The notes under the pieces: model-generated | Told to the model about the DNA's origin: nothing | Databases searched by the model: none | The model's input: only the letters and a program-made list of their open reading frames with translations | Shown here: positions 3,488 through 59,356 of the stretch, piece after piece | How the letters are laid out: each line of letters starts with the position of its first letter | Position numbering within the stretch: position 1 is the first letter of the stretch | Position numbers and translations under genes: made by a program | IMG/VR virus record: IMGVR_UViG_3300027763_000031 | Span: 1 to 64,000 of that record | DNA: 64,000 nt | Direction: 5' to 3' (one strand) | From: a virus | Lineage: Duplodnaviria; Caudoviricetes

Positions 3488-4217
3488 AACGCAGAGGGGT
3501 AAATTCATCGCCTTCGAAGGTATCGACGGCTGTGGAAAGACAACCCAACTAGCAACTATCGCTGATTGGTTGTGGTCAAGTGGTTTATTGCCAGAAGGGG
3601 CACAGGTTGTAGAAACTCGTGCGCCGGGTTGTTTGCCTGCTATTAGGACCTTACTTAAAGATCCTGCCACTGCGTTAACCCCTAGAGCCGAACTCCTATT
3701 GATGATGGCTGATAGAGCCCAACATGTGGAGACTGTAATTAAGCCCGAACTTGAAAGAGGCAATTGGGTATTATGTGACCGTTTCTATACCAGCACCATG
3801 GCATACCAAGGGTGGGGTAGAGCCTTAGGGTGGCAAGCCGTTAAGCAAGCACATGAACTTGCGTGTGGTTTGTTTTATCCAGACTTTGAGATTTACTTTG
3901 ATGTTCCAGCTGATGAAGCTGCATTGAGGGTTGAAAGGCGGAATAAGCAATTGAGACAAGAACATGGTAGGAAACCCGATGTCAAAGATCGGTTCGAGTC
4001 CCAAGGGAGACCATTTATGGACCGGGTTATTGAAGGTTACGACAATGCAAGTAAGTTACCTTTTATTAAGGAGTATCCACATGTTACAATCGATGGGTGT
4101 TGCGATATCGGCAAGGTAACTGAGTATTGCAAGGATGCCATTGCCAACTTTGTTGCTGCCTTAGATGTGGTCAGTACCCCCATGGTGATTAGCCCGACCC
4201 GGTATAAGGTCATGTAG
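3477..4217 (+). CDS. tmk: thymidylate kinase
   Basis: FIAFEGIDGCGKTTQ, ADRAQH, LCDRF..ST.AYQG, DRFE. Confidence 0.93.
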   Translation: MKTETQRGKFIAFEGIDGCGKTTQLATIADWLWSSGLLPEGAQVVETRAPGCLPAIRTLLKDPATALTPRAELLLMMADRAQHVETVIKPELERGNWVLCDRFYTSTMAYQGWGRALGWQAVKQAHELACGLFYPDFEIYFDVPADEAALRVERRNKQLRQEHGRKPDVKDRFESQGRPFMDRVIEGYDNASKLPFIKEYPHVTIDGCCDIGKVTEYCKDAIANFVAALDVVSTPMVISPTRYKVM

Positions 4218-29660: not shown

Positions 29661-30203
29661 ATGACGCCGACTCAGGAGCAATTTGTAAGATGGTGCGAGG
29701 ACTATTACTTTGACAATCGGCTGGAACCTGGTAATCCTTGCCATGGGGATTGGGAGTCTTGTCATTATCCTGTCCCAAAATGCTTGGGGGGAAGTAATAC
29801 TGTTCTTCTGCTCAAAGAGCACCATGCTATTCAAGGTGTTTTGCAGTCAGAGGAGTGTAACCACCCTTGTATTTGGGGTTGGGAGAAGTCTTACCTTAAG
29901 GCGGAGATTTTATCTCTTTGGCGAAAGTGGATGGGGGTAAAAGCACGTCCATTTACATTCGATAGTGGGAGAAAAGCTCAAAGCCTACGCAGTAAGGAAA
30001 GTTTAAGGAGAGGTTGGGAAAAAATGGTAAGCAAAGACCCTGAGATCCTTAGTAATAGTGGTAAAAAAATGGCTAAAAAAATCAATTCTAGGCGCGTACG
30101 CTGCTTAGTAACTGGAAAAATATCAACACCTGGCCCTCTCACTCTATATCAAACTGCTAGGGGCATTGATCCCTCGCTAAGGGAAGAAATTACTAATGAC
30201 TAA
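29661..30203 (+). CDS. free-standing HNH-like (homing-type) endonuclease
   Basis: ESCHYPVPKCLGGSNTVLLLKEHH resembles EXHHIXPXXXGG..N...L...EH; basic C-terminus. Confidence 0.6.
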   Translation: MTPTQEQFVRWCEDYYFDNRLEPGNPCHGDWESCHYPVPKCLGGSNTVLLLKEHHAIQGVLQSEECNHPCIWGWEKSYLKAEILSLWRKWMGVKARPFTFDSGRKAQSLRSKESLRRGWEKMVSKDPEILSNSGKKMAKKINSRRVRCLVTGKISTPGPLTLYQTARGIDPSLREEITND

Positions 30204-46985: not shown

Positions 46986-49661
46986 ATGAGTAAATCCGAT
47001 AAAAAAGTGTTCTCAAAAAAAGTCCACGTATTTAAAGCTGGCCCCCAAACTAGCGCACAGGGTGTGCAGAGAAACTTCTCTGCTGACGACCTTAAGGAAG
47101 TTGCAAACTCATATGACCCCAAAGTCCATTCAGCCCCCCTTGTAATTGGCCACTCTGGAGATAACGACAGCGTACCTGCTTACGGGTGGATTAAAGGATT
47201 CTCTCAAAAGGGTGATGACTTATATGCAGATGTAGAATTTACGGACGTAGCTAAGGACTTGGTTAGAGGTGGTCATTATAGGAAAGTTTCCATTTCCTTC
47301 TATTCCCCCGATTCCCCCATTAACCCACACAAAGGCAAGTGGAGTGCAAGGCATTTGGCATTGCTCGGAGCTGCACCCCCAGCTGTGAAAGGCTTGGAGC
47401 CATTCTCTTTTAGCGAAGAAGAGGGAGTTTTCGACTTTGCAGTAGCCCTGTCCCCTGACCAACTTTTTGATAAGGACTTAGGACCGACGCTGCTTATAGA
47501 AAAAAGTCCCCTAGAAATGCTAAAAGAAAGACTAGATGAAGTCAAAAGTGAAGTCAATCAGTCCCTACAGCAATTAGAACAAAACCAGGACCAACAAACA
47601 GAATCGGATGTCGGCCAAGGCCAACAACCTGAAACTACAAATTCGGCGGATCAAAACGCCAACCCCGATAACCCTAATCAGCAATTCTCTGAAATGAAAA
47701 AGAACTTGGGGCGCGAAGGCGCTGAAATCACTGAGTCTACTCAAGAAGTAGCCAATCTAGAAACCAAAGCACCAGAAAACAAGCCAAAAATGCCCAAATC
47801 AAAAGTTTCTCCCAAAGCCAAACTTGATGATACCGAAGAAGACGGGGAGTTCAAGGAAGTTACCAAAGGTGGCAAAAAGTCCAAAATGATGGAAGAATCA
47901 CCTGAGGAAGAAGCCATGGAATCTCCTGAAGAAGAAATGGAAGAAGATTCCAAATACGCCGAAAAAGTCAAAGGCAAAATGACCAAAATGCCTATGGAAT
48001 CTCCTGAAGATGAATCAGAAGACGAAGGCACCGAATTCGAGGAAGGCATTAAGCGCCGTGTCTCTAAAGGAGCTGGTGGCCAGGAAGTTCAGGTTGTTGA
48101 GCAAGTATTTGAGGAAGGTATTGATTCTCAGCATAAGGAAGTTTCCAAGTCCAAGAAAAAGAAAGCCCCCAGTCAACCTGTGGACGAAACGGACATGGAC
48201 GAAGAGGAAATGGATGACGAGGATTCAGAGTACAATGAACTAGAGTACGACGAAGTTAGTCACAAAACCGCATCTAATGGGAAAGTATCCTTTGGTACCC
48301 ACAAAGGTGAAACCGGAGATAAAGTTACTGGCCGCTCAGTTACTGCCCGATCCAAAGATGATAGCTACGGAGCCCGTCAAAAGGCTGGTAAAGCCCCAGA
48401 GGAAGACCGCGATGGTGTAACCAGCGATGGTGAACAAGACGAGGACCGTCTCAAAACTGCAAAAAATAGCGAACAAGACGAAGACCGCCTAAAAACTGCC
48501 AGAGAGGAAGATGGTGACAATAGTCAGGAAGGTCGTTGGGCTGGTCAAGATACTATGGCCAAAGATAGAAACAACGATCAGTACGACGATGCCAGCACCA
48601 AGTACCCAGAGAAGCAACGTCCTGGAACTTCTGATGGGGAAGATCCCCATGGCCGCAGCGAAGGGCCCACCCCAGTTTCTAACCTTTCTGAGGAAGACCC
48701 CGACAATCTCGATATGGCAGTAGATGTCAAATCAGTTAAAGGTAACAAAACTTCCCGCGTCATTCACCAATCATCTAGCGACAAAAGACCCCCACTCAAA
48801 GGTGGCCCAATTGCCGACCATGCCGAAGGTGGTGAGCCTGATGAAGAGGGAGTCGGCCGAGAACCGAAATCCGCCAAGACTTCCAGTGGTAAAGCCCCCC
48901 GTGGCCGCGAGGGTGGCCCGACTGATTTCCCAACTCGCTCTGAGGAAGATCCTGATGACCTCGATATGGCAGTTGACCTAAAGGATGCTACCCAAAGTGA
49001 TAAGGTCCGGATTGTTCGTCAGAAGTCCGGTGAGAAGGCATCCGTCAATCATGCTGAAGGTGAAATGTCCCGCCGTAAAAAGGCAGCAGAAGAGGGAGAC
49101 CCGATGACCGTAACAGGCAAGGGTTCGACTTATAAGGAGCCTAAGGGTCCCATGGGAGCTTGTTCTGACGGGGAAGAAGAAGTTAAGTATAGCGGAATGG
49201 GTTCTGCCGGTCAAGCCCGTCCTACAGGGTTCCCAGCCCAAATCTACAAGGAGATCGAAGCCCTTAAGAAAGAAAACGATAGGCTCAAGAAGGAATTCGA
49301 AGAGCAGAAAGTCCATGCCCATAAACAAAGGATTTCCCACTACGTTGAGAATCTTTATAGCGACGGCAAACTGACCAATGCCATCATTCAGCAAGATGAT
49401 TTGCAAAGTTTCTGCGAAGGTTTAGAATTTGGAACCTTGGAATTCTCCGAAGGTGAAACACCAACGTCTAAACTCTTTGGAATCTTAAATCGCCTGCCAA
49501 GCATGGTGCATTTTGGAGAAATTGTTGGACCGGAAGACAAAGCATTTGAAGCAACCTTAGAAAACATGGACCCCCATGAAAGGGCCCTTGAAATGGTAAA
49601 ACGCGGTGAAGCCTCCGACTACTTGGAAGCCATCAAAACTTGCCTTTGGACTTCTAACTGA
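46986..49661 (+). CDS. prohead protease/scaffold protein (Mu-like) with long acidic linker
   Basis: APLVIGH, PAYGWI, YRKVSISFY, HLALLGAAPPAVKGL; C-terminal coiled coil. Confidence 0.85.
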   Translation: MSKSDKKVFSKKVHVFKAGPQTSAQGVQRNFSADDLKEVANSYDPKVHSAPLVIGHSGDNDSVPAYGWIKGFSQKGDDLYADVEFTDVAKDLVRGGHYRKVSISFYSPDSPINPHKGKWSARHLALLGAAPPAVKGLEPFSFSEEEGVFDFAVALSPDQLFDKDLGPTLLIEKSPLEMLKERLDEVKSEVNQSLQQLEQNQDQQTESDVGQGQQPETTNSADQNANPDNPNQQFSEMKKNLGREGAEITESTQEVANLETKAPENKPKMPKSKVSPKAKLDDTEEDGEFKEVTKGGKKSKMMEESPEEEAMESPEEEMEEDSKYAEKVKGKMTKMPMESPEDESEDEGTEFEEGIKRRVSKGAGGQEVQVVEQVFEEGIDSQHKEVSKSKKKKAPSQPVDETDMDEEEMDDEDSEYNELEYDEVSHKTASNGKVSFGTHKGETGDKVTGRSVTARSKDDSYGARQKAGKAPEEDRDGVTSDGEQDEDRLKTAKNSEQDEDRLKTAREEDGDNSQEGRWAGQDTMAKDRNNDQYDDASTKYPEKQRPGTSDGEDPHGRSEGPTPVSNLSEEDPDNLDMAVDVKSVKGNKTSRVIHQSSSDKRPPLKGGPIADHAEGGEPDEEGVGREPKSAKTSSGKAPRGREGGPTDFPTRSEEDPDDLDMAVDLKDATQSDKVRIVRQKSGEKASVNHAEGEMSRRKKAAEEGDPMTVTGKGSTYKEPKGPMGACSDGEEEVKYSGMGSAGQARPTGFPAQIYKEIEALKKENDRLKKEFEEQKVHAHKQRISHYVENLYSDGKLTNAIIQQDDLQSFCEGLEFGTLEFSEGETPTSKLFGILNRLPSMVHFGEIVGPEDKAFEATLENMDPHERALEMVKRGEASDYLEAIKTCLWTSN

Positions 49662-49666
49662 GCTAA

Positions 49667-50428
49667 ATGGATCTCCTTTCCTTAATTGGCTCTGTCACTA
49701 AAAGGAGGGGAGATTTTTTCTCTAATGCCGAATCGCTAGCCAAAAAAGCTAAAACCATCGGGAACCTAGAGAGCATGATGCTCAGGGATTCTAAGCTTTT
49801 AGTTAAGTCTCTTAAGGACAAAGACATAAAGTGGGACGAGTTTTCTCGTGCCATGGTTGACAAAACCTTAGAGGCATCTTTGGCAGGAGTCTACCTTGGG
49901 TCAGCATCATCGAAGCCTAAAGCAAAATTGGAAAAAGCATGGCCAACAGTTGTCGGACAATTGGTGCCACCATTACTTAAATTCCTCGATGTGACAAAGG
50001 CCCGATTTGAAAATAATGCAATCTCTATAGTCGGTGACGAAATGGATTTTGCCTCCAAAGGTCCATCTGGCGACTATGATTGGGACATCCTTGATGATCC
50101 TGATTACGATTCGGAAGATCCTGAGGTTCAGGATGCCATACAGAATTCGATTGATTCCGGTGTGGGGCAAACCTGGCAAGGGGTTTTTTCTAGGGTTTCT
50201 CGCTACCTTGTTACCCCAGCTTACGCATTTTTTCAACTGGGTGATTACCTAGTGAAGGAAGAACAGGGCCACAAGGAAATGATGCGAGTTGCCAAAAAGG
50301 ACAAAAAAACTTGCAAAGAATGCAAAGAATACGAGAAGCTAGGTTGGCAGCCAATCGGTTCCCTACCACTTCCTGGGCAGAGATGCAGATGCTATGGCAG
50401 ATGTAGATGTCTGGTCAATTACCGGTAG
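49667..50428 (+). CDS. putative head morphogenesis/minor capsid protein
   Basis: C-terminal TCKEC...GWQPIGSLPLPG..C.C...CRC. Confidence 0.6.
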   Translation: MDLLSLIGSVTKRRGDFFSNAESLAKKAKTIGNLESMMLRDSKLLVKSLKDKDIKWDEFSRAMVDKTLEASLAGVYLGSASSKPKAKLEKAWPTVVGQLVPPLLKFLDVTKARFENNAISIVGDEMDFASKGPSGDYDWDILDDPDYDSEDPEVQDAIQNSIDSGVGQTWQGVFSRVSRYLVTPAYAFFQLGDYLVKEEQGHKEMMRVAKKDKKTCKECKEYEKLGWQPIGSLPLPGQRCRCYGRCRCLVNYR

Positions 50429-50536
50429 CCCATCAGCAACCCCACGTAAGTGGGGGTAAAACCAATTATCACATCAGCTAGGTGAAAAACAAGTCCTAGA
50501 GTAAACCAAAAGTCAACACATATTAAGAAAAAGATC

Positions 50537-51010
50537 ATGAGTCTAAACATTGCACCCGTTTACGCAAAACAGTACATCAGATATGCTTCCACCTGGCAAG
50601 CCGCTACCGACAACCAAGCTGGTAGTATTGGCGTAGTCGAAATCCCCGAATTTTCGGTTGTCGCTCAAGCAACCTATGCCGGGGCTAATAAGGTTTGCTC
50701 CCCTGGTAATTTAACATCCTTTACCGGGGCTATCGTAGGTGTTAGCCAGTCTTACATCCCGACTGCACTATCTCAACCTCAAACTGCCCGTCAAGTTAGT
50801 GTCGCCAGTAGCGGCTCTTTGATCGTCGAAGTTAGCGCTTCGGCTGTCGCTGCTTTTACCATTGGTAGCCGCCTTTCGGTTGGCACCGACGGTAAAGCGC
50901 TCCCAACCGCCAACAGCGGTGTGAACGTTACCTTAGATGGTACCACTCCACTTATTCGTGAGATTGTTACGATCGGTCGTCGTACCTTGGTTGTTGCGAC
51001 TTTCAACTGA
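50537..51010 (+). CDS. putative head decoration/capsid cement protein
   Basis: small Ala/Gly/Val-rich beta protein directly before the capsid gene; IVGVSQ, SVASSG, FTIGSRLSVGTDGKA. Confidence 0.6.
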   Translation: MSLNIAPVYAKQYIRYASTWQAATDNQAGSIGVVEIPEFSVVAQATYAGANKVCSPGNLTSFTGAIVGVSQSYIPTALSQPQTARQVSVASSGSLIVEVSASAVAAFTIGSRLSVGTDGKALPTANSGVNVTLDGTTPLIREIVTIGRRTLVVATFN

Positions 51011-51032
51011 TTGCTGATTGAATTTTTACTAT

Positions 51033-51058
51033 GGGGCTCCGAAAGGGGCTCCTTTTTT
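51033..51058 (+). terminator. Rho-independent terminator
   Basis: ggggctcc-gaaa-ggggctcc + T6. Confidence 0.85.
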
Positions 51059-51179
51059 ATAGTTAGGCTTCCATTAGCAAAGTGTGGGTATAACTACAGT
51101 GACCCCGAAGTTTTCGGACTTTTGGGTTAGATTGCCAACGCAATCTTTGAAGTCAACCTAGAAAAGGAAATCATCTATT

Positions 51180-54100
51180 ATGATGAATCATGGCGGTTCC
51201 GCTCAAGGGTAACCTTGGGATGAAAATTGGGTGAATTGCTGGGAAGCCTACGGCTTCAAACGAAAGTTTGATGCTATGGTAATCAGCAGCGAAGCGTTTT
51301 CGGGAGAAAACGAACGTTCAACGACTAACAGCATACTACTAGAACAGTAATGAAGCTGACACGAGCGCCCGACTCTTTGCTTAGGTAAAGATGATGATAT
51401 AGTCTGAACTTTGTAGAAATACAAAGATGTGAAGGATAAAGAGCCTTTACGATAACATAATGCTACAACAGACCTACGCAGGGGTCGATCCCATTTTTTA
51501 GAGTGGCTTTGTTTTTAACAAAGAAAATCCGGTGAATTGCTGGGAAGCCTACGGCTTCAAACGAAAGTTTGATGCTATGGTAATCAGCAGCCAAGGCTTT
51601 TAGGGATAAAAGCAAGGTTCAACGACTAGATTAAGTAGCCTAGAACAGGTGAACAATCCACGAGCGCCGGGCGTTTTGTTTACAAAACGATGATATAGTC
51701 TGAACTCTTTGGAAACAAAGAGAGGTAGGGGATAAAGAGCCTCTACGTTAACAAATGTCTCACCACCCTCGCGCAAGGTTTCATGCTACCGTCTACCAAC
51801 ATTGCGAATCAATGAGGTTCCTTCAGGGGGTGACCCCTGTCGAATAATCGGGTGAACTGCTGGGACACCTTACTTTTGCTATGCAAAAGAGGCAATCAGC
51901 AGCCAAGTTTACTTCGGGTCTCTTGTTGCTATAATAAGAGTGAAGTAAGAAGGTTCAACGACTAGAAAGTGACTGACCCAAGAATAATCTTTCCACGAGC
52001 GCCCGACTCTTTGCTTAGGCAAAGATGATGATATAGTCTAAACTGCATGGAAACATGCAGAGCAAAACGTTAAGTTTTGTATATTATTCATAGCACCGGT
52101 GGTAGACACGCCAACTCGTGCAGGACGTATCCTGCGCTTCGGTATTCCATATGCCGCTTAACTCCGTGAGGGGTTATGAAAAATTGGGTGAATTGCTGGG
52201 AAGCCTACGGCTTCAAACGAGAGTTTGAAAGCTATGGTAATCAGCAGCGAAGCCGTCAAGGGATTGACGGAACGTTCAACGACTAGAGTTAGTAATCTAG
52301 AACAGATGAAAACTCCACGAGCGCCTGACGTTTTGTTTACAAAACGATGATATAGTCTGAACTCTTTGGAAACAAAGAGAGGTAGGGGATAAAGAGCCCC
52401 TGCGATAACATAATTGAAGGAACAGTAAATAGCTTGCTGTTGTAAAATTGGGTGAATTGCTGGGAACCCCTAACGTAAAGGCGAGGGAAATCAGCAGCCA
52501 AGTCTACTGCGTCGAGGAATCACTATGATTTCTGTAGTGGAAAGGTTCAACGACTAGACGATGAGTTTCGACAACAATAACTCGTCCACGAGCGCCCGAC
52601 GTTTTGTTTACAAAACGATGATATAGTCTGATCTGCATAGAAACATGCAGAGGTAGGGAATAAAGAGTCTCTACGATAACATGGTGTTGCTATCAACGAC
52701 TTCCGTCGTGCTTACGGTAATTAGTTTGTGCCGTAAATAAATTGGGTGAATTGCTGGGAAGCCTACGGTTTCAAACGAGAGTTTGACGCTATGGTAATCA
52801 GCAGCGAAGCCGTCAAGGGATTGACGGAACGTTCAACGACTAGATTAAGTAGCCTAGAACAGGTGAACAATCCACGAGCGCCCAATGCCCTACATAGTAA
52901 TGTAAGGCAAAGATATAGTCTGACCTACATGGAAACATGTAGAAGCAAGGGATAAAGAACCTTTGCGATAACAAATGACAAACATCCCCTACGTCCAAAG
53001 CCGTTACGACTCCGAGCCTTATGCTCTGGAGCAGGAAGTGGTCGCATGGGAATTGCCTAAATCTTTGGGCCTTGCCGTTGCCTAGTTAGCGCGGTAAGAA
53101 TAATAGGGTGAATTGCTGGAAAGCCCCCAACTTAATGGCCAATCAGCAGCGAAGCGTTTTCGGGAGAAAACGAACGTTCAACGACTAGATTAAGTAGCCT
53201 AGAACAGGTGAACAATCCACGAGCGCCTTACGTCTGACTAACCTTTATAGGGGGGTATAGACGGTGATATAGTCTGAACTGTAAAGATGGTAAATTTACA
53301 GAAACAAAGGATAAAGAGCCTTTGTGATAACAACCTTGGAAGAGGTTAGATCGATAGCCTCCGTCAGTTGAAAAACTGATAGAAAAAACTGGGTGAATTG
53401 CTGGGAAGCCTACGGCTTCAAACGAAAGTTTGATGCTATGGTAATCAGCAGCCAAGGCTTTTAGGGATAAAAGCAAGGTCCAACGACTAACAGCATACTA
53501 CTAGAACAGTAATGAAGCTGACACGAGCGCCCAGCACCCTGATAAGGGTGAAGATATAGTCTGAACTTTCTGGAAACAGAGAGAAGTAAAGGATAAAGAG
53601 CCTTTGCGATAACATTATTGAATCGAGAACGCAGGGGAAGGTTGTAAGGGCCTTCCTTGTGACAAAGGTCACTAAAAATCGGGTGAATTGCTGGGACACC
53701 TTACTTTTGCTACGCAAAAGAGGCAATCAGCAGCCAAGGCTTTTAGGGATAAAAGCAAGGTTCAACGACTAGAGTTAGTAATCTAGAACAGATGAAAACT
53801 CCACGAGCGCCTGATGTCTTACCGTGCTTAACGGTGGGGCAAAGATATAGTCTGAACTCCATGGAAACATGGAGAAGTATGGGATAAAGAGCCCGTACGG
53901 TAACAACATTTTGCCTGCACAAGTGGATTATTTTTTACGAACGATTTCGATCGCAGCGTAGGTCCACTATAAATTGGGTGAATTGCTGGAACCCCCGAGT
54001 GGGCAATCAGCAGCGAAGCCGTCAAGGGATTGACGGAACGTTCAACGACTAACAGCATACTACTAGAACAGTAATGAAGCTGACACGAGCGCCCAATGTC

Positions 54101-55217
54101 TTACAAAGTACAGTAATCGTGTACATAGTGGGGCAATAATATAGTCTGAACATTACCAACAACAAGGTAATGAATCGGCGGATAAAGAGCCGCTGAGTTA
54201 ACAAATGCTACGCGCCATCGAGACTCGCAATGCGATGTCTAGGCTAAACACATTGGCCCTATGAGATTAGTCTCATTTAGAAAATTGGGTGAATTGCTGG
54301 GAAGCCTACGGCTTCAAACGAAAGTTTGATGCTATGGTAATCAGCAGCGAAGCCGTCAAGGGATTGACGGAACGTTCAACGACTAACAGCATACTACTAG
54401 AACAGTAATGAAGCTGACACGAGCGCCCGACGTTTTGTTTACAAAACGATGATATAGTCTGAACTGCATAGAAACATGCAGAAGCAAGGGATAAAGAGCC
54501 CTCGCGATAACATAATGAATGAACAGCTACGAGTACACCGTTGCTCAAGCTGTTTCAGTGACTGGCAGCTACAATCCATACGAGCCCTACAATGGGACTC
54601 CTGGCTCACAAACTGGTCTTGGTTTTACAACCTGGACTACCTTCAACACCGCTTATGGCACAGCCACTGGCCCTGCCGCATGGTCTGGTGCAACCTCTAA
54701 TCCCATTGAGGACATCCTGACCCTGAAGCGTGCTGTTGCCAACCAGATCGGCATTCGTCCGAACTCTGCTGTTCTTGGAACTTCAGTTTTCGACCTCTTG
54801 CTGACCAACGAAGCGATCCTTGATCGTATCAAGTACACCTCCGCCGATAGCATCGACACAGATGTCATCGCTCGCTACTTCGGTCTTGAGCGTGGCCTGC
54901 GCGTAGCTGAAGGGCGTTATTTGGCCAACGACGGCTCCTTGCAGCCTGTCTTCCCCGCCAATGGCATCCTCCTGTTCTACAGCCCCAACGGTCCTTCTGA
55001 TTCGATCATGCCTGCGGGTGGTGCTAATGCTGCGACTCCGGCCTTCAGTTATACTTATCAGTTGACAGGTACCCCAGCCGTCCGTCCCGAGTACTACATT
55101 CGCGAACGCCGTGTCGTGCGTGCTGAAATCACCATCGAACGTGTGGTTAACTTGGTTGGCCTCGGTGCATCTGGTCTTATCGGTTCTGGCGCTATGATCA
55201 CCAACATCTTGTCCTGA
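51180..55217 (+). CDS. major capsid protein, 351 aa, 12 exons: 51180-51188, 51463-51494, 51758-51809, 52087-52143, 52417-52426, 52687-52718, 52978-53058, 53339-53346, 53621-53642, 53914-53928, 54208-54245, 54518-55217
   Basis: joined exons = 1056 nt with no internal stop: MMNLQQTYAGVDPILTTLAQGFMLPSTNIANFIAPVVDTPTRAGRILRFGKEQFAINDFRRAYGTNIPYVQSRYDSEPYALEQEVVAWELPEEVIENAGEGPAQVDLRAIETRNAMSRLMNSYEY...; VDPILT.LAQG, FGKE.F, PIEDI...K..V....GIRPN are capsid-like; position after protease and decoration genes. Confidence 0.9.
51189..51462 (+). ncRNA. group I intron 1 (274 nt, phase 0)
   Basis: P gaattgctgggaa, Q aatcagcag, R gttcaacgacta, S gatatagtc; P1 GAAT/GTTC; ends in G. Confidence 0.9.
51495..51757 (+). 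ncRNA. group I intron 2 (263 nt, phase 2)
   Basis: PQRS core; P1 CCAT/GTGG; P3 ccggtg/cgccgg; ends in G. Confidence 0.9.
51810..52086 (+). ncRNA. group I intron 3 (277 nt, phase 0; apparent terminal A)
   Basis: PQRS core; P1 GAAT/GTTC; P10 ATGAG/TTCAT; atypical 3' domain. Confidence 0.8.
52144..52416 (+). ncRNA. group I intron 4 (273 nt, phase 0)
   Basis: PQRS core; P1 CGGT/GCCG; P10 TTCC/GGAA. Confidence 0.9.
52427..52686 (+). ncRNA. group I intron 5 (260 nt, phase 1)
   Basis: PQRS core; P1 AACAGT/GCTGTT; P10 ATAGC/GCTAT. Confidence 0.9.
52719..52977 (+). ncRNA. group I intron 6 (259 nt, phase 0)
   Basis: PQRS core; P1 TTACGGT/GCCGTAA; P10 GTTTGT/ACAAAC. Confidence 0.92.
53059..53338 (+). 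ncRNA. group I intron 7 (280 nt, phase 0)
   Basis: PQRS core; P1 GCCT/GGGC; P10 TCTTT/GAAGA. Confidence 0.9.
53347..53620 (+). ncRNA. group I intron 8 (274 nt, phase 2)
   Basis: PQRS core; P1 GAGGT/GCCTC; P10 TCGAT/ATCGA. Confidence 0.9.
53643..53913 (+). ncRNA. group I intron 9 (271 nt, phase 0)
   Basis: PQRS core; P1 GGAAGGT/GCCTTCC. Confidence 0.9.
53929..54207 (+). ncRNA. group I intron 10 (279 nt, phase 0)
   Basis: PQRS core; P1 AGTGGAT/GTCCACT with enlarged loop; P10 GCGTAG/CTACGC. Confidence 0.9.
54246..54517 (+). ncRNA. group I intron 11 (272 nt, phase 2)
   Basis: PQRS core; P1 GGCT/GGCC; P10 CATT/AATG. Confidence 0.9.
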
Positions 55218-55245: not shown

Positions 55246-55689
55246 ATGGCAATTCTCAGACCTTTAACAAAGTCGCAATACGAGGTATCGTTCGTAGCTC
55301 CCAACGGGGTGTCTTTAATCGCTGTTTTTACAAAATTCAGTGGTATCAAAGATTCTTCAGAAAAGAGCGAATACGCCAATGGCACTGGAAACCGAAAGTA
55401 CCATGTCGTTGGCCCACGAACTGCAGATAATGTTACTCTTACTGCTCCGTATGATCCTACGATCTTCAAGCAACTAGAGAACTTCTGGTTAAACTACAAT
55501 TGTCAAGATGTTACCGTTACAGTAACCCCTAGGGACTGTACTGGTACAGGATCTGCTCCAGCCGGTGGCGCGTACACCTGCTACGGTTGTAAATTCCTAT
55601 CAATCACTACTGCCAACGTTGATCGCGACAGCGGAAACGTCCAGGAAATTGAAGTGGAACTGACCGTCAATATTTGGGACAGAACTTGA
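55246..55689 (+). CDS. tail tube protein
   Basis: FTKFSGI, GPRTADNVTLT, V.VTP, Y..YGC, DRDSGNVQEIEVELTV; GAGG SD. Confidence 0.75.
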   Translation: MAILRPLTKSQYEVSFVAPNGVSLIAVFTKFSGIKDSSEKSEYANGTGNRKYHVVGPRTADNVTLTAPYDPTIFKQLENFWLNYNCQDVTVTVTPRDCTGTGSAPAGGAYTCYGCKFLSITTANVDRDSGNVQEIEVELTVNIWDRT

Positions 55690-56275: not shown

Positions 56276-59200
56276 ATGCCAAGATATGCTCCCCTCCCCC
56301 CGGTTTCAATAGACCCAAGGAACGAGGCACAATTAGTTCAAGATGCAGCGCAAAAAGTATACGAGGCGTCTAACAAAACCCTCAATGACTTCAGTGCAGG
56401 GAATCCCCTTGCGGTTCTGTTAGAGGGGCAGGCTTTTTCTCAAGGTGAATTTTTATTTTGGGCGAATCAACTACCAAATAAGATCCTTATCGAATGGATA
56501 GGCCCATTTTTAGGCGCCCTAAGGAGACTAGGTACCCCTGCGACAGCTTTGGTTAGGTTGTCAATAGCACCAAGAAATTCAGACTTATCGGTACCATCCG
56601 GGTCTGTATTTACATCCAACCCCCAATTATCCGGCGGCCAAGGATTTGAATATGTAAGCTCATATAGTGTTACAATACCTGCCGGTAAGACCGAAGTTGA
56701 AATCCCTGTTTATTCTAAATTTGTAGGTAACATCTATAATGTCCCGGCTAATTCAATTACTGGCCCCCCGGACCTCGGGGAAGCTAGCACTGTAGTAACC
56801 AATCCTGAACCTGCGGTAGGAGGCAGTGATGTAGAAACATATGCTCAAGTCCAAGAAAGGTTTTTCTCCCTAATCAGACGCAGGAATCCCGTTAGCCAGG
56901 CAGACTGGGAGAACTTCTTCATAGATATGTTTGGTTTAGGGACTCTGACTTCTGTTCAACCTAATAGAAGTAGCAGATTTGGTTATAATTATTTGTCTGA
57001 CTTCACAAAGCCTAATGGACAAGTTTCTTTCTTTGTGCTTGGACCCAATGGTATAGAATTAACCGATGACCAAATAAGAAGGGGTCAAAATGTAATTAAC
57101 TTCTCGATCCCCATTGAAAATCAAGCCCACCTGTACCCTATTACTCTAAGTCAAACTCAATATAACATAACTCTTGAAGTTGATGCCAATGGTATCTATG
57201 GCTCTAATTATCAGCCTGTAACTTTGAATTTTAGGGATAGGCTCTCCACAGTATTGACCCCTGGAAATGTTTTTCCAACTGATACGAACCCGACCGTAAG
57301 TGATGTTGATGCCGCTTTTTATAATACTTTTGATTCTATCAGCAGGTTCAAAGACCCCCAAATTAACTACTCTGCAGCTTACAATACCCCTGTCCTTCTG
57401 AGTAAAGACGCTGCTATTTATACTAATGTATATGATTTTGAACCCGTAAATACTATTTTAAATAGTGATGATCTCATTGTAGTTAATAACCCTAACCTAT
57501 CATACTACCCAGTAGAAGTAGCATATAGCCCCTATTCAACGAACAAATTCGACCAAACTGTGTACGGTAATCTTGCTTTAAAGCAAATAAAGTTACTCAC
57601 TGCCGGTAGATACAGTTTGGGGGACATTGTGTTCTTCAATAATCAATTATTCGTAGTCCTTGAAAATATAGTAATTGGATCTTCAGCAGATATCCCCAGT
57701 GCTTTTGTAGCTGGAAAAATTTCTTCAGCAAAGACTTATTCTGCATGGGTCGTAAATAACTCTTACCAATATTCACTGGGGACAACAATAGACCCAGAAA
57801 TCGTTGAGTATGACTACTCAGACGGTGAGTTCCTACCTACCACTACTGTCGGAAGATTGGCTTGGCTGGTAGCTCAGAATTTTATCTTATTCCCTTCTAC
57901 TAATGACATTACCGGGGCCCAGACTGAAAATAAAATAGGACCAGCTTTAAATTCTAGCTTGCCAAATAATTATAATCAACTAGTTGAAGGTCAGTCCTAC
58001 TTAGCAGGAACTTGGGTTTACACACCACAGGTTGGGAGCGGTCCGGATGCTGTTTCTGACCCCCATTATAACTATGTGGACGTAACGAAAGGGGCCGTCA
58101 ATAAGTACGCCTATGTAATTGCACCTTTTACTTACGAACCCAATGGAGCACTAACCGTAGATTACTTTAGCGAATTAATAAAGCAAGGCATTATAAGAGA
58201 AGTGTCCGTACTAGATGGCAATGGCGGGCTACCCATTTACAAATACAAACCTAGATTCAAATGTGGGCAGTATTTAGAATACAGGGAAGTTTCAGGTGGG
58301 ACTCCTACCTATTGTATTGCCGCCAAGTACTTCACACCAAGCAGCACATCTATTCAGGACTTAATCAATGATGGCTCAGTGATCAACCTTGCACCTTCAT
58401 TCGAGCTAAGGTCACAATTAGATAATCTAATAGATAATAGCGTATCTGGCAGAATAAAGACGACCAACTTGGTAAACGGGGGGTCAGGTTACCGAAACGG
58501 TGCCTATACTAACCTACCTTTAATATATAGCAACCCAATCAATGGGGTTGGGGTCAACGGGTCTATTAACTTGGTAGTCTCAGGGAATACAATTATTTCC
58601 TACGAGTTATCAGATTTTGGAAGGGGGTTCTCAATTGGCGATGTCCTGACTATAGATAATAGTTACTTGGGCGGTACTGGTAGTGGTTTCCAAATCCAAA
58701 TAACCTCTCTTTACCCCCGGCTGACGGAAATAAATACATTTGTCAGGATGTTTACTTTCTACAGAGGGGACAGAACCTACTTTAGAAATGGTAATTCGGT
58801 AAAATCCTACACAGCTACATCTAGCGTAAGCCCCTTATTTGACTTTCCAATTTACTACAAAAATGGTATTTTCATAGACTCCTCAGAAGCTGGAACAAAT
58901 GAATTTGACCCCCGGGCATACGTCCCATATTTTAATCCAGATTATGTCAAATACGCAGAGGACACCCTTGTAGCAAAGGATGGCAGGAATATCTACAGGG
59001 TAATGAGAGCATTCACACCTCAAACAACGGTAACCAACTGGACAAACATGACAGTCACCAATACGGCCAGATTTGAAGAATTTGCCGATAACCTACTGAG
59101 GTACGTCTCTTTTTACAGGTGTGAAGAGGAAATTATCTCTCAATTTGGATTGGAGACATCCTCGATTAAATTAGGCGCAGCTCAAATAACATTAGTGCCA

Positions 59201-59356
59201 CGTAATACAGGAAGATTTACCAACTCCAACCAGGAAATCACTTATGTATGGGAGAACCCTAGTTCCAATACAGATGTTCCCCAACTCTCTTGGTATACTG
59301 GGACTACTTTCCCCTACCAACCGCCTGACTATAAAGAAGGGACCTTAAGTCTATGA
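56276..59356 (+). CDS. baseplate J-like protein with long C-terminal extension
   Basis: DPRNE, NDFSAGNP..VLLE, G..YNVPANSI, VTNPEPAVGGSDVET, RRRNPVSQADWE. Confidence 0.8.
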   Translation: MPRYAPLPPVSIDPRNEAQLVQDAAQKVYEASNKTLNDFSAGNPLAVLLEGQAFSQGEFLFWANQLPNKILIEWIGPFLGALRRLGTPATALVRLSIAPRNSDLSVPSGSVFTSNPQLSGGQGFEYVSSYSVTIPAGKTEVEIPVYSKFVGNIYNVPANSITGPPDLGEASTVVTNPEPAVGGSDVETYAQVQERFFSLIRRRNPVSQADWENFFIDMFGLGTLTSVQPNRSSRFGYNYLSDFTKPNGQVSFFVLGPNGIELTDDQIRRGQNVINFSIPIENQAHLYPITLSQTQYNITLEVDANGIYGSNYQPVTLNFRDRLSTVLTPGNVFPTDTNPTVSDVDAAFYNTFDSISRFKDPQINYSAAYNTPVLLSKDAAIYTNVYDFEPVNTILNSDDLIVVNNPNLSYYPVEVAYSPYSTNKFDQTVYGNLALKQIKLLTAGRYSLGDIVFFNNQLFVVLENIVIGSSADIPSAFVAGKISSAKTYSAWVVNNSYQYSLGTTIDPEIVEYDYSDGEFLPTTTVGRLAWLVAQNFILFPSTNDITGAQTENKIGPALNSSLPNNYNQLVEGQSYLAGTWVYTPQVGSGPDAVSDPHYNYVDVTKGAVNKYAYVIAPFTYEPNGALTVDYFSELIKQGIIREVSVLDGNGGLPIYKYKPRFKCGQYLEYREVSGGTPTYCIAAKYFTPSSTSIQDLINDGSVINLAPSFELRSQLDNLIDNSVSGRIKTTNLVNGGSGYRNGAYTNLPLIYSNPINGVGVNGSINLVVSGNTIISYELSDFGRGFSIGDVLTIDNSYLGGTGSGFQIQITSLYPRLTEINTFVRMFTFYRGDRTYFRNGNSVKSYTATSSVSPLFDFPIYYKNGIFIDSSEAGTNEFDPRAYVPYFNPDYVKYAEDTLVAKDGRNIYRVMRAFTPQTTVTNWTNMTVTNTARFEEFADNLLRYVSFYRCEEEIISQFGLETSSIKLGAAQITLVPRNTGRFTNSNQEITYVWENPSSNTDVPQLSWYTGTTFPYQPPDYKEGTLSL

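What the first reader, a model, noticed from the sequence alone, without database searches (positions are those of the whole stretch)
51180..55217. Major capsid gene interrupted by eleven group I introns within its first 119 codons
Seen: the 3.3-kb ORF-poor repeat region holds 11 units with group I P/Q/R/S cores (gaattgctgg, aatcagcag, gttcaacgacta, atatagtc). Each begins after a U that forms a U-G pair in its own P1, and 10 of 11 end in G. Removing them (2982 nt, 74% of the gene) joins 12 exons into a stop-free 351-aa capsid protein across mixed phases (0,2,0,0,1,0,0,2,0,0,2), which is very unlikely by chance. Established: phage group I introns usually number one to a few per gene, mostly in DNA-metabolism genes. 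I know of no comparable density in a capsid gene but could not search. The most abundant virion protein would need 11 splicing events per mRNA.
Basis: partly seen in the sequence, partly recalled or inferred. Interest (0 to 1): 0.97.

Follow-up and report, generated by a model that had tools for sequence, protein, structure and literature searches.

The report
Phage capsid gene with eleven introns
The only coat-protein gene of an uncultured giant lake-water phage is cut into twelve pieces, some only 8 to 10 bases long, by eleven self-splicing group I introns. Lake RNA data show all eleven removed exactly as predicted, which is the heaviest intron load I could find described in print for one phage gene.

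Summary
Observation confirmed and interpretation supported. Rfam finds exactly 11 group I introns in the window (55-101 bits, cut-off 50), all inside 51189-54517. Its first 119 residues are 100% identical, without gaps, to uninterrupted homologues. RNA contigs from three lake metatranscriptome runs carry all 11 joints at the predicted bases, micro-exons of 10, 8 and 15 nt included. The best DNA run carries none of these joints. An IMG/VR contig identical to the window lacks all 11 introns precisely.

All 11 introns lack an ORF. Ten end in G. Intron 3 ends in A and is still spliced at that base.

Relatives carry 0 to 13 introns at about 15 sites. At 7 of the window's 11 sites some relative has a version that holds an ORF; 10 of these ORFs (covering 6 of the 7 sites) were tested and match HNH-type homing endonucleases. 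This is therefore a homing hotspot seen at the endonuclease-lost stage.

The scan has already found this lineage on other DNA (9-, 6- and 2-intron alleles). I found no paper on it. The closest published case is a crAss-like capsid gene in five fragments.

The parts
51180..51188 (+). Exon 1 (9 nt, codons 1-3, includes the start codon)
   Evidence: An RNA contig runs 51110-51188 and then joins to 51463.
51189..51462 (+). Intron 1 (274 nt, phase 0, ends in G, no ORF)
   Evidence: Rfam 91.5 bits. P1 GAAU|C x GGUUC with U.G. RNA joint 51188>51463 in 3 of 3 RNA runs and 0 of 1 DNA run.
51463..51494 (+). Exon 2 (32 nt)
51495..51757 (+). Intron 2 (263 nt, phase 2, ends in G)
   Evidence: Rfam 93.6 bits. 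RNA joint 51494>51758 in 3 of 3 RNA runs.
51758..51809 (+). Exon 3 (52 nt)
51810..52086 (+). Intron 3 (277 nt, phase 0). It ends in A, not G, and lacks the 3' tail shared by the other ten. It keeps a 14-codon remnant of an endonuclease gene start at 51969-52010.
   Evidence: Rfam 94.4 bits. The junction is unique. RNA joint 51809>52087 (skipped ends CA..TA, no ambiguity) in 3 of 3 RNA runs. P10 of 5 bp. The same-site intron ends in G in 7 relatives and in A in G001. Remnant.
52087..52143 (+). Exon 4 (57 nt)
52144..52416 (+). Intron 4 (273 nt, phase 0, ends in G)
   Evidence: Rfam 85.8 bits. RNA joint 52144>52687 with the exon-5 letters kept between, in 3 of 3 RNA runs.
52417..52426 (+). Exon 5 (micro-exon, 10 nt)
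   Evidence: Kept between two joints in RNA contigs of 3 of 3 runs (table 5c).
52427..52686 (+). Intron 5 (260 nt, phase 1, ends in G)
   Evidence: Rfam 94.7 bits. Removed in RNA. One RNA contig, 52446-52686, stops exactly at the intron's last base.
52687..52718 (+). Exon 6 (32 nt)
52719..52977 (+). Intron 6 (259 nt, phase 0, ends in G)
   Evidence: Rfam 89.8 bits. RNA joint 52718>52978 in 3 of 3 RNA runs. P10 of 6 bp.
52978..53058 (+). Exon 7 (81 nt)
53059..53338 (+). Intron 7 (280 nt, phase 0, ends in G)
   Evidence: Rfam 61.3 bits. RNA joint 53058>53621 with the 8 exon-8 letters kept, in 3 of 3 RNA runs. In G001 the same site holds an 861-nt version with an endonuclease ORF.
53339..53346 (+). 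Exon 8 (micro-exon, 8 nt)
   Evidence: Kept between two joints in RNA of 3 of 3 runs (table 5c).
53347..53620 (+). Intron 8 (274 nt, phase 2, ends in G)
   Evidence: Rfam 101 bits, with the P1 U.G placed by the model alignment. Removed in RNA.
53621..53642 (+). Exon 9 (22 nt)
53643..53913 (+). Intron 9 (271 nt, phase 0, ends in G); absent from the near relative G001
   Evidence: Rfam 90.6 bits. RNA joint 53642>54208 with the 15 exon-10 letters kept, in 3 of 3 RNA runs. G001 has exons 9 and 10 fused.
53914..53928 (+). Exon 10 (micro-exon, 15 nt)
   Evidence: Kept between two joints in RNA (table 5c).
53929..54207 (+). Intron 10 (279 nt, phase 0, ends in G)
   Evidence: Rfam 55.1 bits, the lowest but above the cut-off of 50. 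Removed in RNA. P10 of 6 bp.
54208..54245 (+). Exon 11 (38 nt)
54246..54517 (+). Intron 11 (272 nt, phase 2, ends in G)
   Evidence: Rfam 89.2 bits. RNA joint 54245>54518 in 2 of 3 RNA runs. In the third run a contig starting at 54518 carries 16 loose letters that equal the end of exon 11.
54518..55217 (+). Exon 12 (700 nt including the stop codon): the capsid-fold body
   Evidence: Pfam Phage_cap_E and phrog_1005. 100% identical to P0001 and P0002.

Best explanation
This is the single, functional major capsid gene of an uncultured jumbo phage of about 280 kb from lake water. Its nearest cultured capsid relative is Synechococcus phage S-CBWM1. The first 356 coding bases are interrupted by 11 ORF-less group I introns. 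The late transcript is made as a pre-mRNA of about 4 kb. Each intron folds into a conserved P3-P9 core, pairs its own guide sequence with the last 3-8 bases of the upstream exon (U.G at the cleavage site) and usually with the first bases of the downstream exon (P10), and removes itself. The product is an mRNA for a 351-aa protein colinear with intron-less capsids. An in-frame stop codon lies ahead of every catalytic core, so a ribosome on unspliced RNA stops before it can unfold the ribozyme.

The array arose by homing. In related phages the same introns at the same sites carry site-specific HNH-type homing endonuclease genes. The window phage represents the later stage of the homing cycle, in which the sites are occupied and therefore uncuttable and the nuclease genes have been deleted; a remnant survives in intron 3. 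Exchange of modules between the paralogous introns keeps them alike.

Shown here: the introns are real, the junctions are exact, they are removed in RNA, intron presence is polymorphic, and relatives carry endonuclease ORFs. Inferred: self-splicing without protein help, homing as the means of spread, the order of events, and the role of the stop codons.
For: Identity of the introns: 11 of 11 Rfam matches over the cut-off. RNAalifold on the 11 gives P3, P4, P5, P6, P7.1, P8, P9 and P9.1, with 34 of 50 pairs kept through changes on both sides. P1 with U.G in 11 of 11, and contiguous P10 of 3-6 bp from the junction in 7 of 11.

Junctions: the joined frame has 351 aa and is 95.4% identical over 351 aa with 0 gaps to P0007. 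Its N-terminal 119 aa are 100% identical to P0007 and P0021.

Removal in RNA: joints at the predicted bases for all 11 introns in RNA runs X15, X16 and X17, filed under three studies. The score is 3 of 3 runs for 10 introns and 2 of 3 plus a matching loose end for intron 11. None of these joints is seen in DNA run X1. One 748-nt RNA contig has a length that equals exons 4 to 12 joined, and its two listed pieces carry no mismatch to the window.

L020 equals window 47004-51189 at 100%, followed by the exact predicted spliced CDS (alignment score 2112, the maximum for 1056 nt).

Only copy: the complete relative G001 (279,339 bp with terminal repeats) has capsid matches at one locus only.

Homing: I examined 80 viral loci. 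Of these, 57 have an uninterrupted gene (L020 included), 19 are interrupted and 4 are cut by a contig end (with L030 corrected). G001 has 13 introns and L039 has 11. Long versions hold ORFs at the window's sites 9, 41, 93, 273, 281, 303 and 356. Ten of 10 tested ORFs match phrog_655 'homing endonuclease' at E 5e-13 to 5e-30. A profile of 12 of them matches HNH nuclease domains in the PDB (best E 3.8e-4). Same-site nucleases are 59-86% identical and different-site nucleases 20-55%.

Stop codons: there is an in-frame stop before the core in 11 of 11 introns, against 5 of 11 and 8 of 11 in the other two frames.

Module exchange: paralogous introns within the window are up to 89% alike, often more than same-site introns in more distant genomes (61-91%).
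Against: No experiment shows protein-free self-splicing. In-vivo removal would look the same if a host or phage factor helped.

All runs laid were assembled contigs, not raw reads. They show that joined forms exist but say nothing about rates or levels. The RNA samples are not the sample of DNA run X1.

Intron 3 ends in A, which by textbook knowledge should cripple exon ligation. Contigs that still hold the intron 3 to exon 4 boundary appear in all three RNA runs. These could be precursor, a slow intermediate or contaminating DNA.

No endonuclease gene is present in the window's introns (0 of 11). No clear free-standing one was found in the 64 kb either; there are only weak tblastn hits at E 0.003-0.004 at 29700-29876, with no family match. 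Homing is therefore inferred from relatives only.

The stop-codon enrichment is modest (11 of 11 against 13 of 22). Whether L020 derives from RNA or DNA is not stated by the tool.
Confidence: 0.9

Rival explanations
1. The array is kept by selection and is not merely tolerated. Each ORF-less intron breaks the recognition site of one site-specific homing endonuclease carried by co-infecting relatives. The capsid gene is thereby shielded from cutting and from marker replacement, so the introns act as armour in interference competition between phages.
For: Relatives carry nuclease-bearing versions at 7 of the window's 11 sites. Nucleases group by site. The window and its near twin G001 differ at 4 intron sites and in one nuclease ORF although several of their introns are 98-100% identical, which implies recent traffic. 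The introns lie in the part of the protein under the strongest constraint: 99% aa identity against 85% for the rest, measured on 12 intron-free loci. Competition by an intron endonuclease between co-infecting jumbo phages is published (PMC11620839; search listing and abstract only).
Against: Occupied sites are uncuttable under the purely selfish model too, so the pattern does not separate the two. No co-infection data exist. 57 of the 80 relatives' loci examined carry no intron in this gene.
Confidence: 0.3
2. The eleven splicing steps act as a gate on capsid synthesis. Output falls steeply if guanosine cofactor, magnesium or folding conditions are poor, which would tie coat-protein production to the state of the host cell.
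For: This is inference only. Eleven serial reactions multiply any loss of efficiency. The first intron begins 9 nt after the start codon, so ribosome loading and P1 formation must compete.
Against: Close relatives manage with 0 to 13 introns in the same gene. That argues against a tuned regulatory need. I have no data on levels or timing.
Confidence: 0.07
3. The joined RNA and contig L020 come from an intron-less DNA twin of this phage, and the 11-intron allele is a dead copy that is not spliced.
For: Intron-less alleles exist in the lineage. The RNA runs are not from the same sample as DNA run X1. The tool does not say whether L020 is RNA or DNA.
Against: The twin would have to match the window at 4186 of 4186 upstream bases and in all exons while lacking all 11 introns precisely. 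DNA run X1 holds the intron-exon boundaries at depths of 10-18, close to the flanking phage contig at 12.5, and shows none of the 11 joints. The same three RNA runs also contain intron sequence identical to the window. 34 of 50 helix pairs are kept by compensatory change. The complete relative G001 has only the interrupted copy.
Confidence: 0.03
4. Assembly artefact: repeated intron cores caused a chimeric tandem array that does not exist in any one molecule.
For: The cores are repeats longer than common k-mers. Many relatives' contigs break just upstream of the last exon.
Against: Each exon is unique and sits in protein order. DNA contigs with no mismatches join intron, exon and intron across exons 3, 4, 5, 7, 9, 10 and 11 (table 8). 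G001, L039, L029 and others were assembled independently and share the layout.
Confidence: 0.01

Closest known systems
Major capsid gene of a crAss-like Zeta-group phage genome (Yutin et al. 2021, PMC7886860; passages read)
   Same: [quoted passage not shown]
   Different: That gene is in five fragments (four inserts, three with intron-type protein domains), and the maximum reported is 14 introns per whole genome. Here there are 11 introns in one gene (13 in a relative), all ORF-less, with exons down to 8 nt, and removal is seen in RNA. The insertions there were found through endonuclease domains, not ribozyme models. The supplementary tables could not be opened.
Jug jumbo gut phages (PMC12880540; passages read)
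   Same: They are jumbo phages with many short ORF-less group I introns (mean 18.5 per genome, about 206 nt) plus free-standing HNH and other nucleases. Splicing of 37 of 76 introns is supported by metatranscriptome reads.
   Different: Their introns are spread over many genes: terL in 2-3 fragments, also nrdD and the polymerase. No gene with a comparable stack is described in the passages I read. The host (Bacteroides) and habitat also differ.
Single capsid-gene introns: mycobacteriophage LittleE and lactococcal phage Tuc2009 (PMC3706429; passages read)
   Same: A group I intron sits in a capsid subunit gene and is spliced in late expression. The LittleE intron holds an HNH endonuclease gene.
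   Different: One intron per gene, against eleven here.
Staphylococcus phage Twort orf142 with three group I introns; phage T4 td intron (both recalled, not read here)
   Same: Several introns of one family lie in one phage gene with short exons (Twort). An early in-frame stop keeps ribosomes out of the ribozyme (td).
   Different: Three introns against eleven. No micro-exons of 8-10 nt are known to me there.
Intron-rich organellar genes such as fungal mitochondrial cox1 (recalled)
   Same: They show a dozen or more group I introns in one conserved gene, homing endonuclease cycles and occasional micro-exons.
   Different: That is an organelle genome with maturases and nuclear helpers. Here the setting is a virus in a bacterium, where transcription and translation are coupled and the infection cycle sets a time limit.

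Membership tests
Group I intron (Rfam RF00028) | Match to the covariance model above the curated score | tested here: met
   11 of 11, at 55.1-101 bits against a cut-off of 50, full model length.
Group I intron (Rfam RF00028) | Conserved core helices P3-P9 supported by covariation | tested here: met
   RNAalifold on the 11 introns gives 50 pairs, 34 of them with compensatory double changes. The P7 strands GACUA and UAGUC are invariant, so they neither support nor contradict that helix.
Group I intron (Rfam RF00028) | 5' splice site after U, with that U in a U.G wobble pair inside P1 formed with an internal guide | tested here: met
   11 of 11 (intron 4's nearby pairing was read by eye). The guides differ from site to site and match their own exons.
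Group I intron (Rfam RF00028) | Last intron nucleotide is G (omega G) | tested here: not met
   Met in 10 of 11. Intron 3 ends in A, also in G001, while 7 relatives have G at the same site. RNA shows ligation at that very base.
Group I intron (Rfam RF00028) | Precise excision and exon ligation in RNA | tested here: met
   All 11 joints are seen in RNA contigs of three runs and none in the DNA run.
Group I intron (Rfam RF00028) | Guanosine-dependent self-splicing without protein | not testable with these tools
   This needs in vitro transcription and splicing assays.
Subgroup IA of group I introns | Extra P7.1/P7.2 hairpins between P7 and the 3' strand of P3 (criterion recalled from Michel and Westhof) | tested here: inconclusive
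   An insert of about 33 nt at that position forms one predicted helix with covariation (columns 188-191 with 214-217). No subgroup-specific models were available.
Mobile (homing) group I intron | Intron-borne homing endonuclease gene | tested here: not met
   0 of 11 window introns hold an ORF. Relatives' versions at 7 of the 11 sites do. The window introns are therefore nuclease-less derivatives and not autonomous movers.
Mobile (homing) group I intron | Presence or absence polymorphism at identical sites among close relatives | tested here: met
   Relatives carry 0 to 13 introns per gene. 15 well-supported sites were found in 19 interrupted loci plus G001.
Phage_cap_E (lambda gpE-type major capsid protein, PF03864) | Pfam match over the curated cut-off | tested here: met
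   The 3' exon scores 34.8 bits against 22.9. The full-length homologue P0007 scores 40.2 bits. The match covers only profile positions 156-266, so the N-terminal exons are placed by homologues and not by Pfam.
Phage_cap_E (lambda gpE-type major capsid protein, PF03864) | Colinear full length with annotated capsid proteins | tested here: met
   351 aa, 0 gaps to P0007. phrog_1005 'major head protein' positions 142-305 of 315. 63% identity to the annotated capsid protein of Synechococcus phage S-CBWM1.
Phage_cap_E (lambda gpE-type major capsid protein, PF03864) | Presence as the main virion protein | not testable with these tools
   No isolate or proteome is available.

The most novel reading that the evidence does not exclude
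The capsid gene of this phage lineage is a standing battleground. A guild of at least eight site-specific HNH endonucleases rides in introns. ORF-less introns are retained as armour that pre-empts each cut, and the paralogous ribozymes swap modules within a genome. In addition, intron 3 shows that a natural group I ribozyme with an ordinary guanosine pocket can still ligate exons in cells after its terminal G has mutated to A, presumably rescued by a strong 5-bp P10.
Probability: 0.3. Interest if true: 0.9.

Novelty: new variant of a known kind. Interest (0 to 1): 0.82.

Why it matters
Group I introns in phage genes are textbook material, but as one to a few per gene. Here 74% of the most heavily expressed late gene is intron. 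Exons shrink to 8-10 nt, so neighbouring ribozymes must use overlapping bases for P10 and P1. Every mRNA needs eleven correct ribozyme reactions inside a bacterium with coupled translation, yet environmental RNA shows that this works.

This sets a new bound on how much self-splicing load a virus tolerates. It also gives a natural series for studying the homing cycle, ribozyme folding in tandem and concerted evolution of paralogous ribozymes: 0 to 13 introns, with and without nucleases, at about 15 sites. It supplies a natural terminal-A intron that is spliced in vivo.

On the practical side, gene callers report this capsid as a 232-aa fragment, and assemblies break in the array. Capsid-based surveys of lake phages will therefore miss or mis-size this abundant lineage.

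Tried and rejected
The window's own assembly is not held. I used the nearest complete virus record, G001, instead.

The contig of P0001, a 316-aa protein equal to the spliced product from exon 4 onwards, could therefore not be inspected.

My nucleotide spliced-alignment script cannot handle small indels. It gave spurious gaps for the roughly 60 more distant loci (scores near 700). For those I used an open-frame test instead. That test mislabelled L030, which has introns at nt 9, 36 and 74. I left out four doubtful sites as probable alignment artefacts: nt 83 in L027, 276 in L039, and 302 and 331 in L094.

Pfam on the intron ORFs gave only sub-threshold HNH and NUMOD3 hits. A single ORF against the PDB gave nothing. 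The PHROG matches and a 12-sequence profile carried the assignment.

I looked for a trans-acting nuclease in the window. There are only weak tblastn hits at 29700-29876 (E 0.003-0.004), in an ORF at 29661-30203 with no PHROG or Pfam family, so this is unresolved. The primase that holds three more introns in G001 has no counterpart in the 64 kb.

I considered spread by reverse splicing to sites that fit the guide. Three pairs of sites share the last four exon bases: introns 1 and 3, 4 and 6, 8 and 9. By my own arithmetic, 55 pairs and 64 possible three-base words give about 0.9 pairs expected and P of about 0.06. That is too weak to claim.

GenBank phages hold no relative of intron 11 covering 80% or more of it (0 of 142 matching records).

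Depth figures from contigs are not measures of level. In run X17 the joined form has depth 106-152 and the contig that retains intron 3 has 14.8. I treat this only as a hint that intron 3 is slow.

Literature searches that found no description of this lineage or of a phage gene with more than four inserts. One search, on the terminal guanosine, was seen as a listing only and named no natural exception.

Complex prediction, structure prediction and the large protein searches were not needed.

Full report
WHAT IS THERE. Rfam at its curated thresholds finds 11 matches in the 64-kb window. All are Intron_gpI (RF00028), on the + strand, full length, at 55.1-101 bits against a cut-off of 50, and all lie within 51119-54481. 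Nothing else in the window reaches any Rfam threshold. A family HMM built from the 11 finds only those 11 on both strands. The region has no long ORF on the + strand until 54519-55217 (232 aa). That ORF matches Pfam Phage_cap_E (34.8 bits, cut-off 22.9, profile positions 156-266 of 329) and phrog_1005 'major head protein' (E 4e-30, positions 142-305 of 315), so it is the back two-thirds of a capsid protein. Neighbouring genes are a head-maturation protease fusion (46986-49661), a tail-tube-like protein (55246-55689) and a Baseplate_J protein (56276-59356). This is a late structural block.

JUNCTIONS. A search with the 232-aa ORF returned 282 relatives, many of them uninterrupted proteins of 348-356 aa. 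tblastn of one of them (P0007, 351 aa) against the window found all missing N-terminal segments in order between the Rfam hits. I enumerated donor and acceptor positions against the homologue to fix the exons. The exons are 51180-51188, 51463-51494, 51758-51809, 52087-52143, 52417-52426, 52687-52718, 52978-53058, 53339-53346, 53621-53642, 53914-53928, 54208-54245 and 54518-55217. The introns measure 274, 263, 277, 273, 260, 259, 280, 274, 271, 279 and 272 nt, together 2982 nt or 73.8% of the gene. Their phases are 0,2,0,0,1,0,0,2,0,0,2. The joined frame is 1056 nt and 351 aa with no internal stop. It is 95.4% identical to P0007 over all 351 residues with no gap. Its first 119 residues are 100% identical to P0007 and P0021 and gapless against 65 of 65 full-length homologues.

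RNA. Of 24 runs listed for the stretch, six are on record as metatranscriptomes holding 26-43% of its sampled words. I laid three of them (X15, X16, X17, from three studies) and the best DNA holder (X1, 82% of words).

RNA contigs carry these joints: 51188>51463, 51494>51758, 51809>52087, 52144>52687 with the exon-5 letters between, 52718>52978, 53058>53621 with the 8 exon-8 letters between, 53642>54208 with the 15 exon-10 letters between, and 54245>54518. Ten introns are bridged in 3 of 3 RNA runs. Intron 11 is bridged in 2 of 3, and in the third run a contig starting at 54518 has loose letters that equal the end of exon 11. None of these joints occurs in the DNA run.

One RNA contig of 748 nt has a length that equals exons 4 to 12 joined, and its two listed pieces carry no mismatch. 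The DNA run instead holds mismatch-free pieces running intron-exon-intron across exons 3 and 4, 5, 7, 9, 10 and 11, at depths of 10-18. The adjoining 67-kb phage contig has depth 12.5.

Separately, IMG/VR contig L020 (5837 nt) equals window 47004-51189 at 100% and continues with the exact predicted spliced CDS (alignment score 2112, the maximum possible). Eleven precise deletions with no other change in 5.4 kb are hard to explain except as an RNA-derived assembly, but the tool does not state the contig's origin.

Limits: everything laid was contigs, so levels, ends and strand cannot be read. The RNA and DNA runs are also different samples.

ANATOMY. Alignment A1 shows the shared core strings. 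RNAalifold predicts P3, P4, P5, P6, a P7.1-like hairpin, P8, P9 and a 3' hairpin. Thirty-four of 50 pairs are kept through changes on both sides, so the ribozymes are under selection to fold.

The first 25-50 nt differ in every intron. Each offers a P1 in which the last exon U pairs with G, flanked by 3-8 exon pairs (11 of 11). Contiguous P10 pairing of 3-6 bp with the next exon is present in 7 of 11 at the junction register, and by eye in three more with an offset of 1-2 nt. In exon 8 (8 nt) and exon 5 (10 nt) the bases used for the upstream intron's P10 and the downstream intron's P1 overlap by two. The neighbours therefore cannot dock at the same time.

Reading in frame from the exon, every intron has a stop codon ending 2-33 nt in, always ahead of the core. 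This holds for 11 of 11, against 5 of 11 and 8 of 11 in the other frames. A similar arrangement is known from T4 td (recalled).

INTRON 3. Its junction is unique. It ends in A, it lacks the 3' tail common to the other ten, and its P7 strands are the same as in the others. G001 has the identical end. Seven relatives with an intron at this site end in G, including L039, whose tail is otherwise similar, so this is a G-to-A change in this sublineage. RNA from three runs shows ligation at exactly that base. Contigs that still cross the intron 3 to exon 4 boundary occur in all three RNA runs. That is consistent with a slow second step but is not proof. Its P10 is one of the longest, at 5 bp.

RELATIVES. 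The nearest held record, G001, is a complete 279,339-bp virus genome with terminal repeats. It has 17 RF00028 matches, 14 in the capsid locus and 3 in a DNA primase gene. It has capsid homology at one locus only. Spliced alignment gives 13 capsid introns in G001: 10 of the window's 11 sites (not nt 303), plus nt 36, 893 and 926.

I examined 80 IMG/VR loci. Of these, 57 have an uninterrupted gene (L020 included), 19 are interrupted and 4 are cut by the contig end (with L030 corrected). The interrupted ones are mostly the closest relatives, at 87-94% identity in the last exon. Counting only well-aligned loci, I find 15 sites: nt 9, 36, 41, 70/74, 93, 150, 160, 192, 273, 281, 303, 318, 356, 893 and 926.

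Versions of 800-1200 nt hold ORFs at sites 9, 41, 93, 273, 281, 303, 356 and 893. Ten of 10 tested match phrog_655 'homing endonuclease'. A profile of 12 of them hits HNH nuclease domains in the PDB around three invariant histidines. Nucleases at the same site in different phages are 59-86% identical and those at different sites 20-55%. The window's intron 3 keeps 14 codons of the start of the site-93 nuclease.

The window's introns are often more like each other (up to 89% over the ribozyme body) than like same-site introns of more distant genomes (61-91%). A1 shows P5, P6, P7.1 and P8 variants combined in different ways. This points to exchange between paralogues.

The introns sit in the most constrained part of the protein. 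Against 12 intron-free loci, aa identity is 99% for residues 1-119 and 85% for the rest.

HOW IT MOST LIKELY WORKS. Shown: a real array, exact removal in RNA, a single gene copy in a complete relative, site polymorphism, and site-specific nuclease genes in relatives. Inferred: the introns self-splice co-transcriptionally, and the early stop codons keep ribosomes out of unspliced cores. The array was built by repeated homing of nuclease-bearing introns into a highly conserved gene during co-infections, followed by loss of the nuclease genes once the sites were filled. Whether the ORF-less introns are now merely tolerated, or retained because they block cutting by relatives' nucleases, cannot be decided from sequence. 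I give the armour reading about 0.3.

WHAT IS KNOWN. I read passages only of the following papers. Single capsid-gene introns occur in LittleE and Tuc2009 (PMC3706429). [quoted passage not shown] Jug phages have 18.5 short introns per genome, spread over many genes (PMC12880540). Seven full-text searches found nothing on this lineage or on a phage gene with more inserts. Supplements were closed. Twort orf142 (three introns) and intron-rich fungal cox1 genes are recalled, not read.

Within this scan the same lineage has been reported before on other DNA, as alleles with nine, six and two introns and relatives with 0-13 introns. Multi-intron capsid genes of unrelated phages have also been reported. 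My counts agree with those notes. What this window adds is the fullest allele seen in a scanned window, RNA support for every junction from contigs identical to this phage, and in-vivo ligation at the terminal-A intron.

VERDICT. The elements are ordinary group I introns. The arrangement is an extreme, and in its details a new variant, of a known phenomenon.

Noticed in passing
L019 2879-3955 (G001:C1:20378-21454, minus strand): In the complete relative G001, three more introns of the same Rfam family split a DNA primase gene. The flanking ORFs match phrog_25243 at profile positions 11-273 and 342-585. The window holds no primase homologue.
   Followed up: partly
window 29661-30203 (+): A 180-aa ORF between a thymidylate kinase-like gene and a topoisomerase II gene gives weak tblastn hits (E 0.003-0.004) to two intron endonucleases of relatives, but it has no PHROG or Pfam family. 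It might be a free-standing nuclease.
   Followed up: partly
window 51969-52010: Inside intron 3 there are 14 codons that are 93% identical to the start of the site-93 endonuclease of L037 and L039. This is a scar of a deleted nuclease gene.
   Followed up: partly
L028, L030, L031 (CDS nt 74) and L034 (nt 70): A shorter intron of 215 nt, with a different 3' end from the family in the window, sits at a site that is empty in the window.
   Followed up: no
L055, L076, L085, L098: In these loci the capsid gene is uninterrupted, yet 1-2 hits of the window's intron family lie elsewhere upstream in the locus. The family therefore also lives in other genes of more distant relatives.
   Followed up: no
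window 51312-51463, RNA run X15: An RNA contig matches the 3' part of intron 1 and then continues into 25 letters unlike exon 2. This is a near-identical intron at another site or in another phage that is also present in RNA.
   Followed up: no
window 52446-52686, RNA run X15: A 241-nt RNA contig stops exactly at the last base of intron 5, as an excised intron would. A contig end is weak evidence.
   Followed up: no
L020 5743-5837: The last 95 nt of the intron-free contig repeat window 54553-54647, out of order. This is probably an assembly chimera at the contig end.
   Followed up: no
window 46986-49661 (+): In this 891-aa ORF only the first 357 residues or so match a head-maturation protease family (phrog_976). 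The remaining 530 residues are unassigned.
   Followed up: no
window 52142-52687, DNA run X1: A low-depth DNA contig (depth 2) joins exon 4 to exon 6 through 11 letters that differ from exon 5. This is a co-occurring relative that lacks introns 4 and 5.
   Followed up: no
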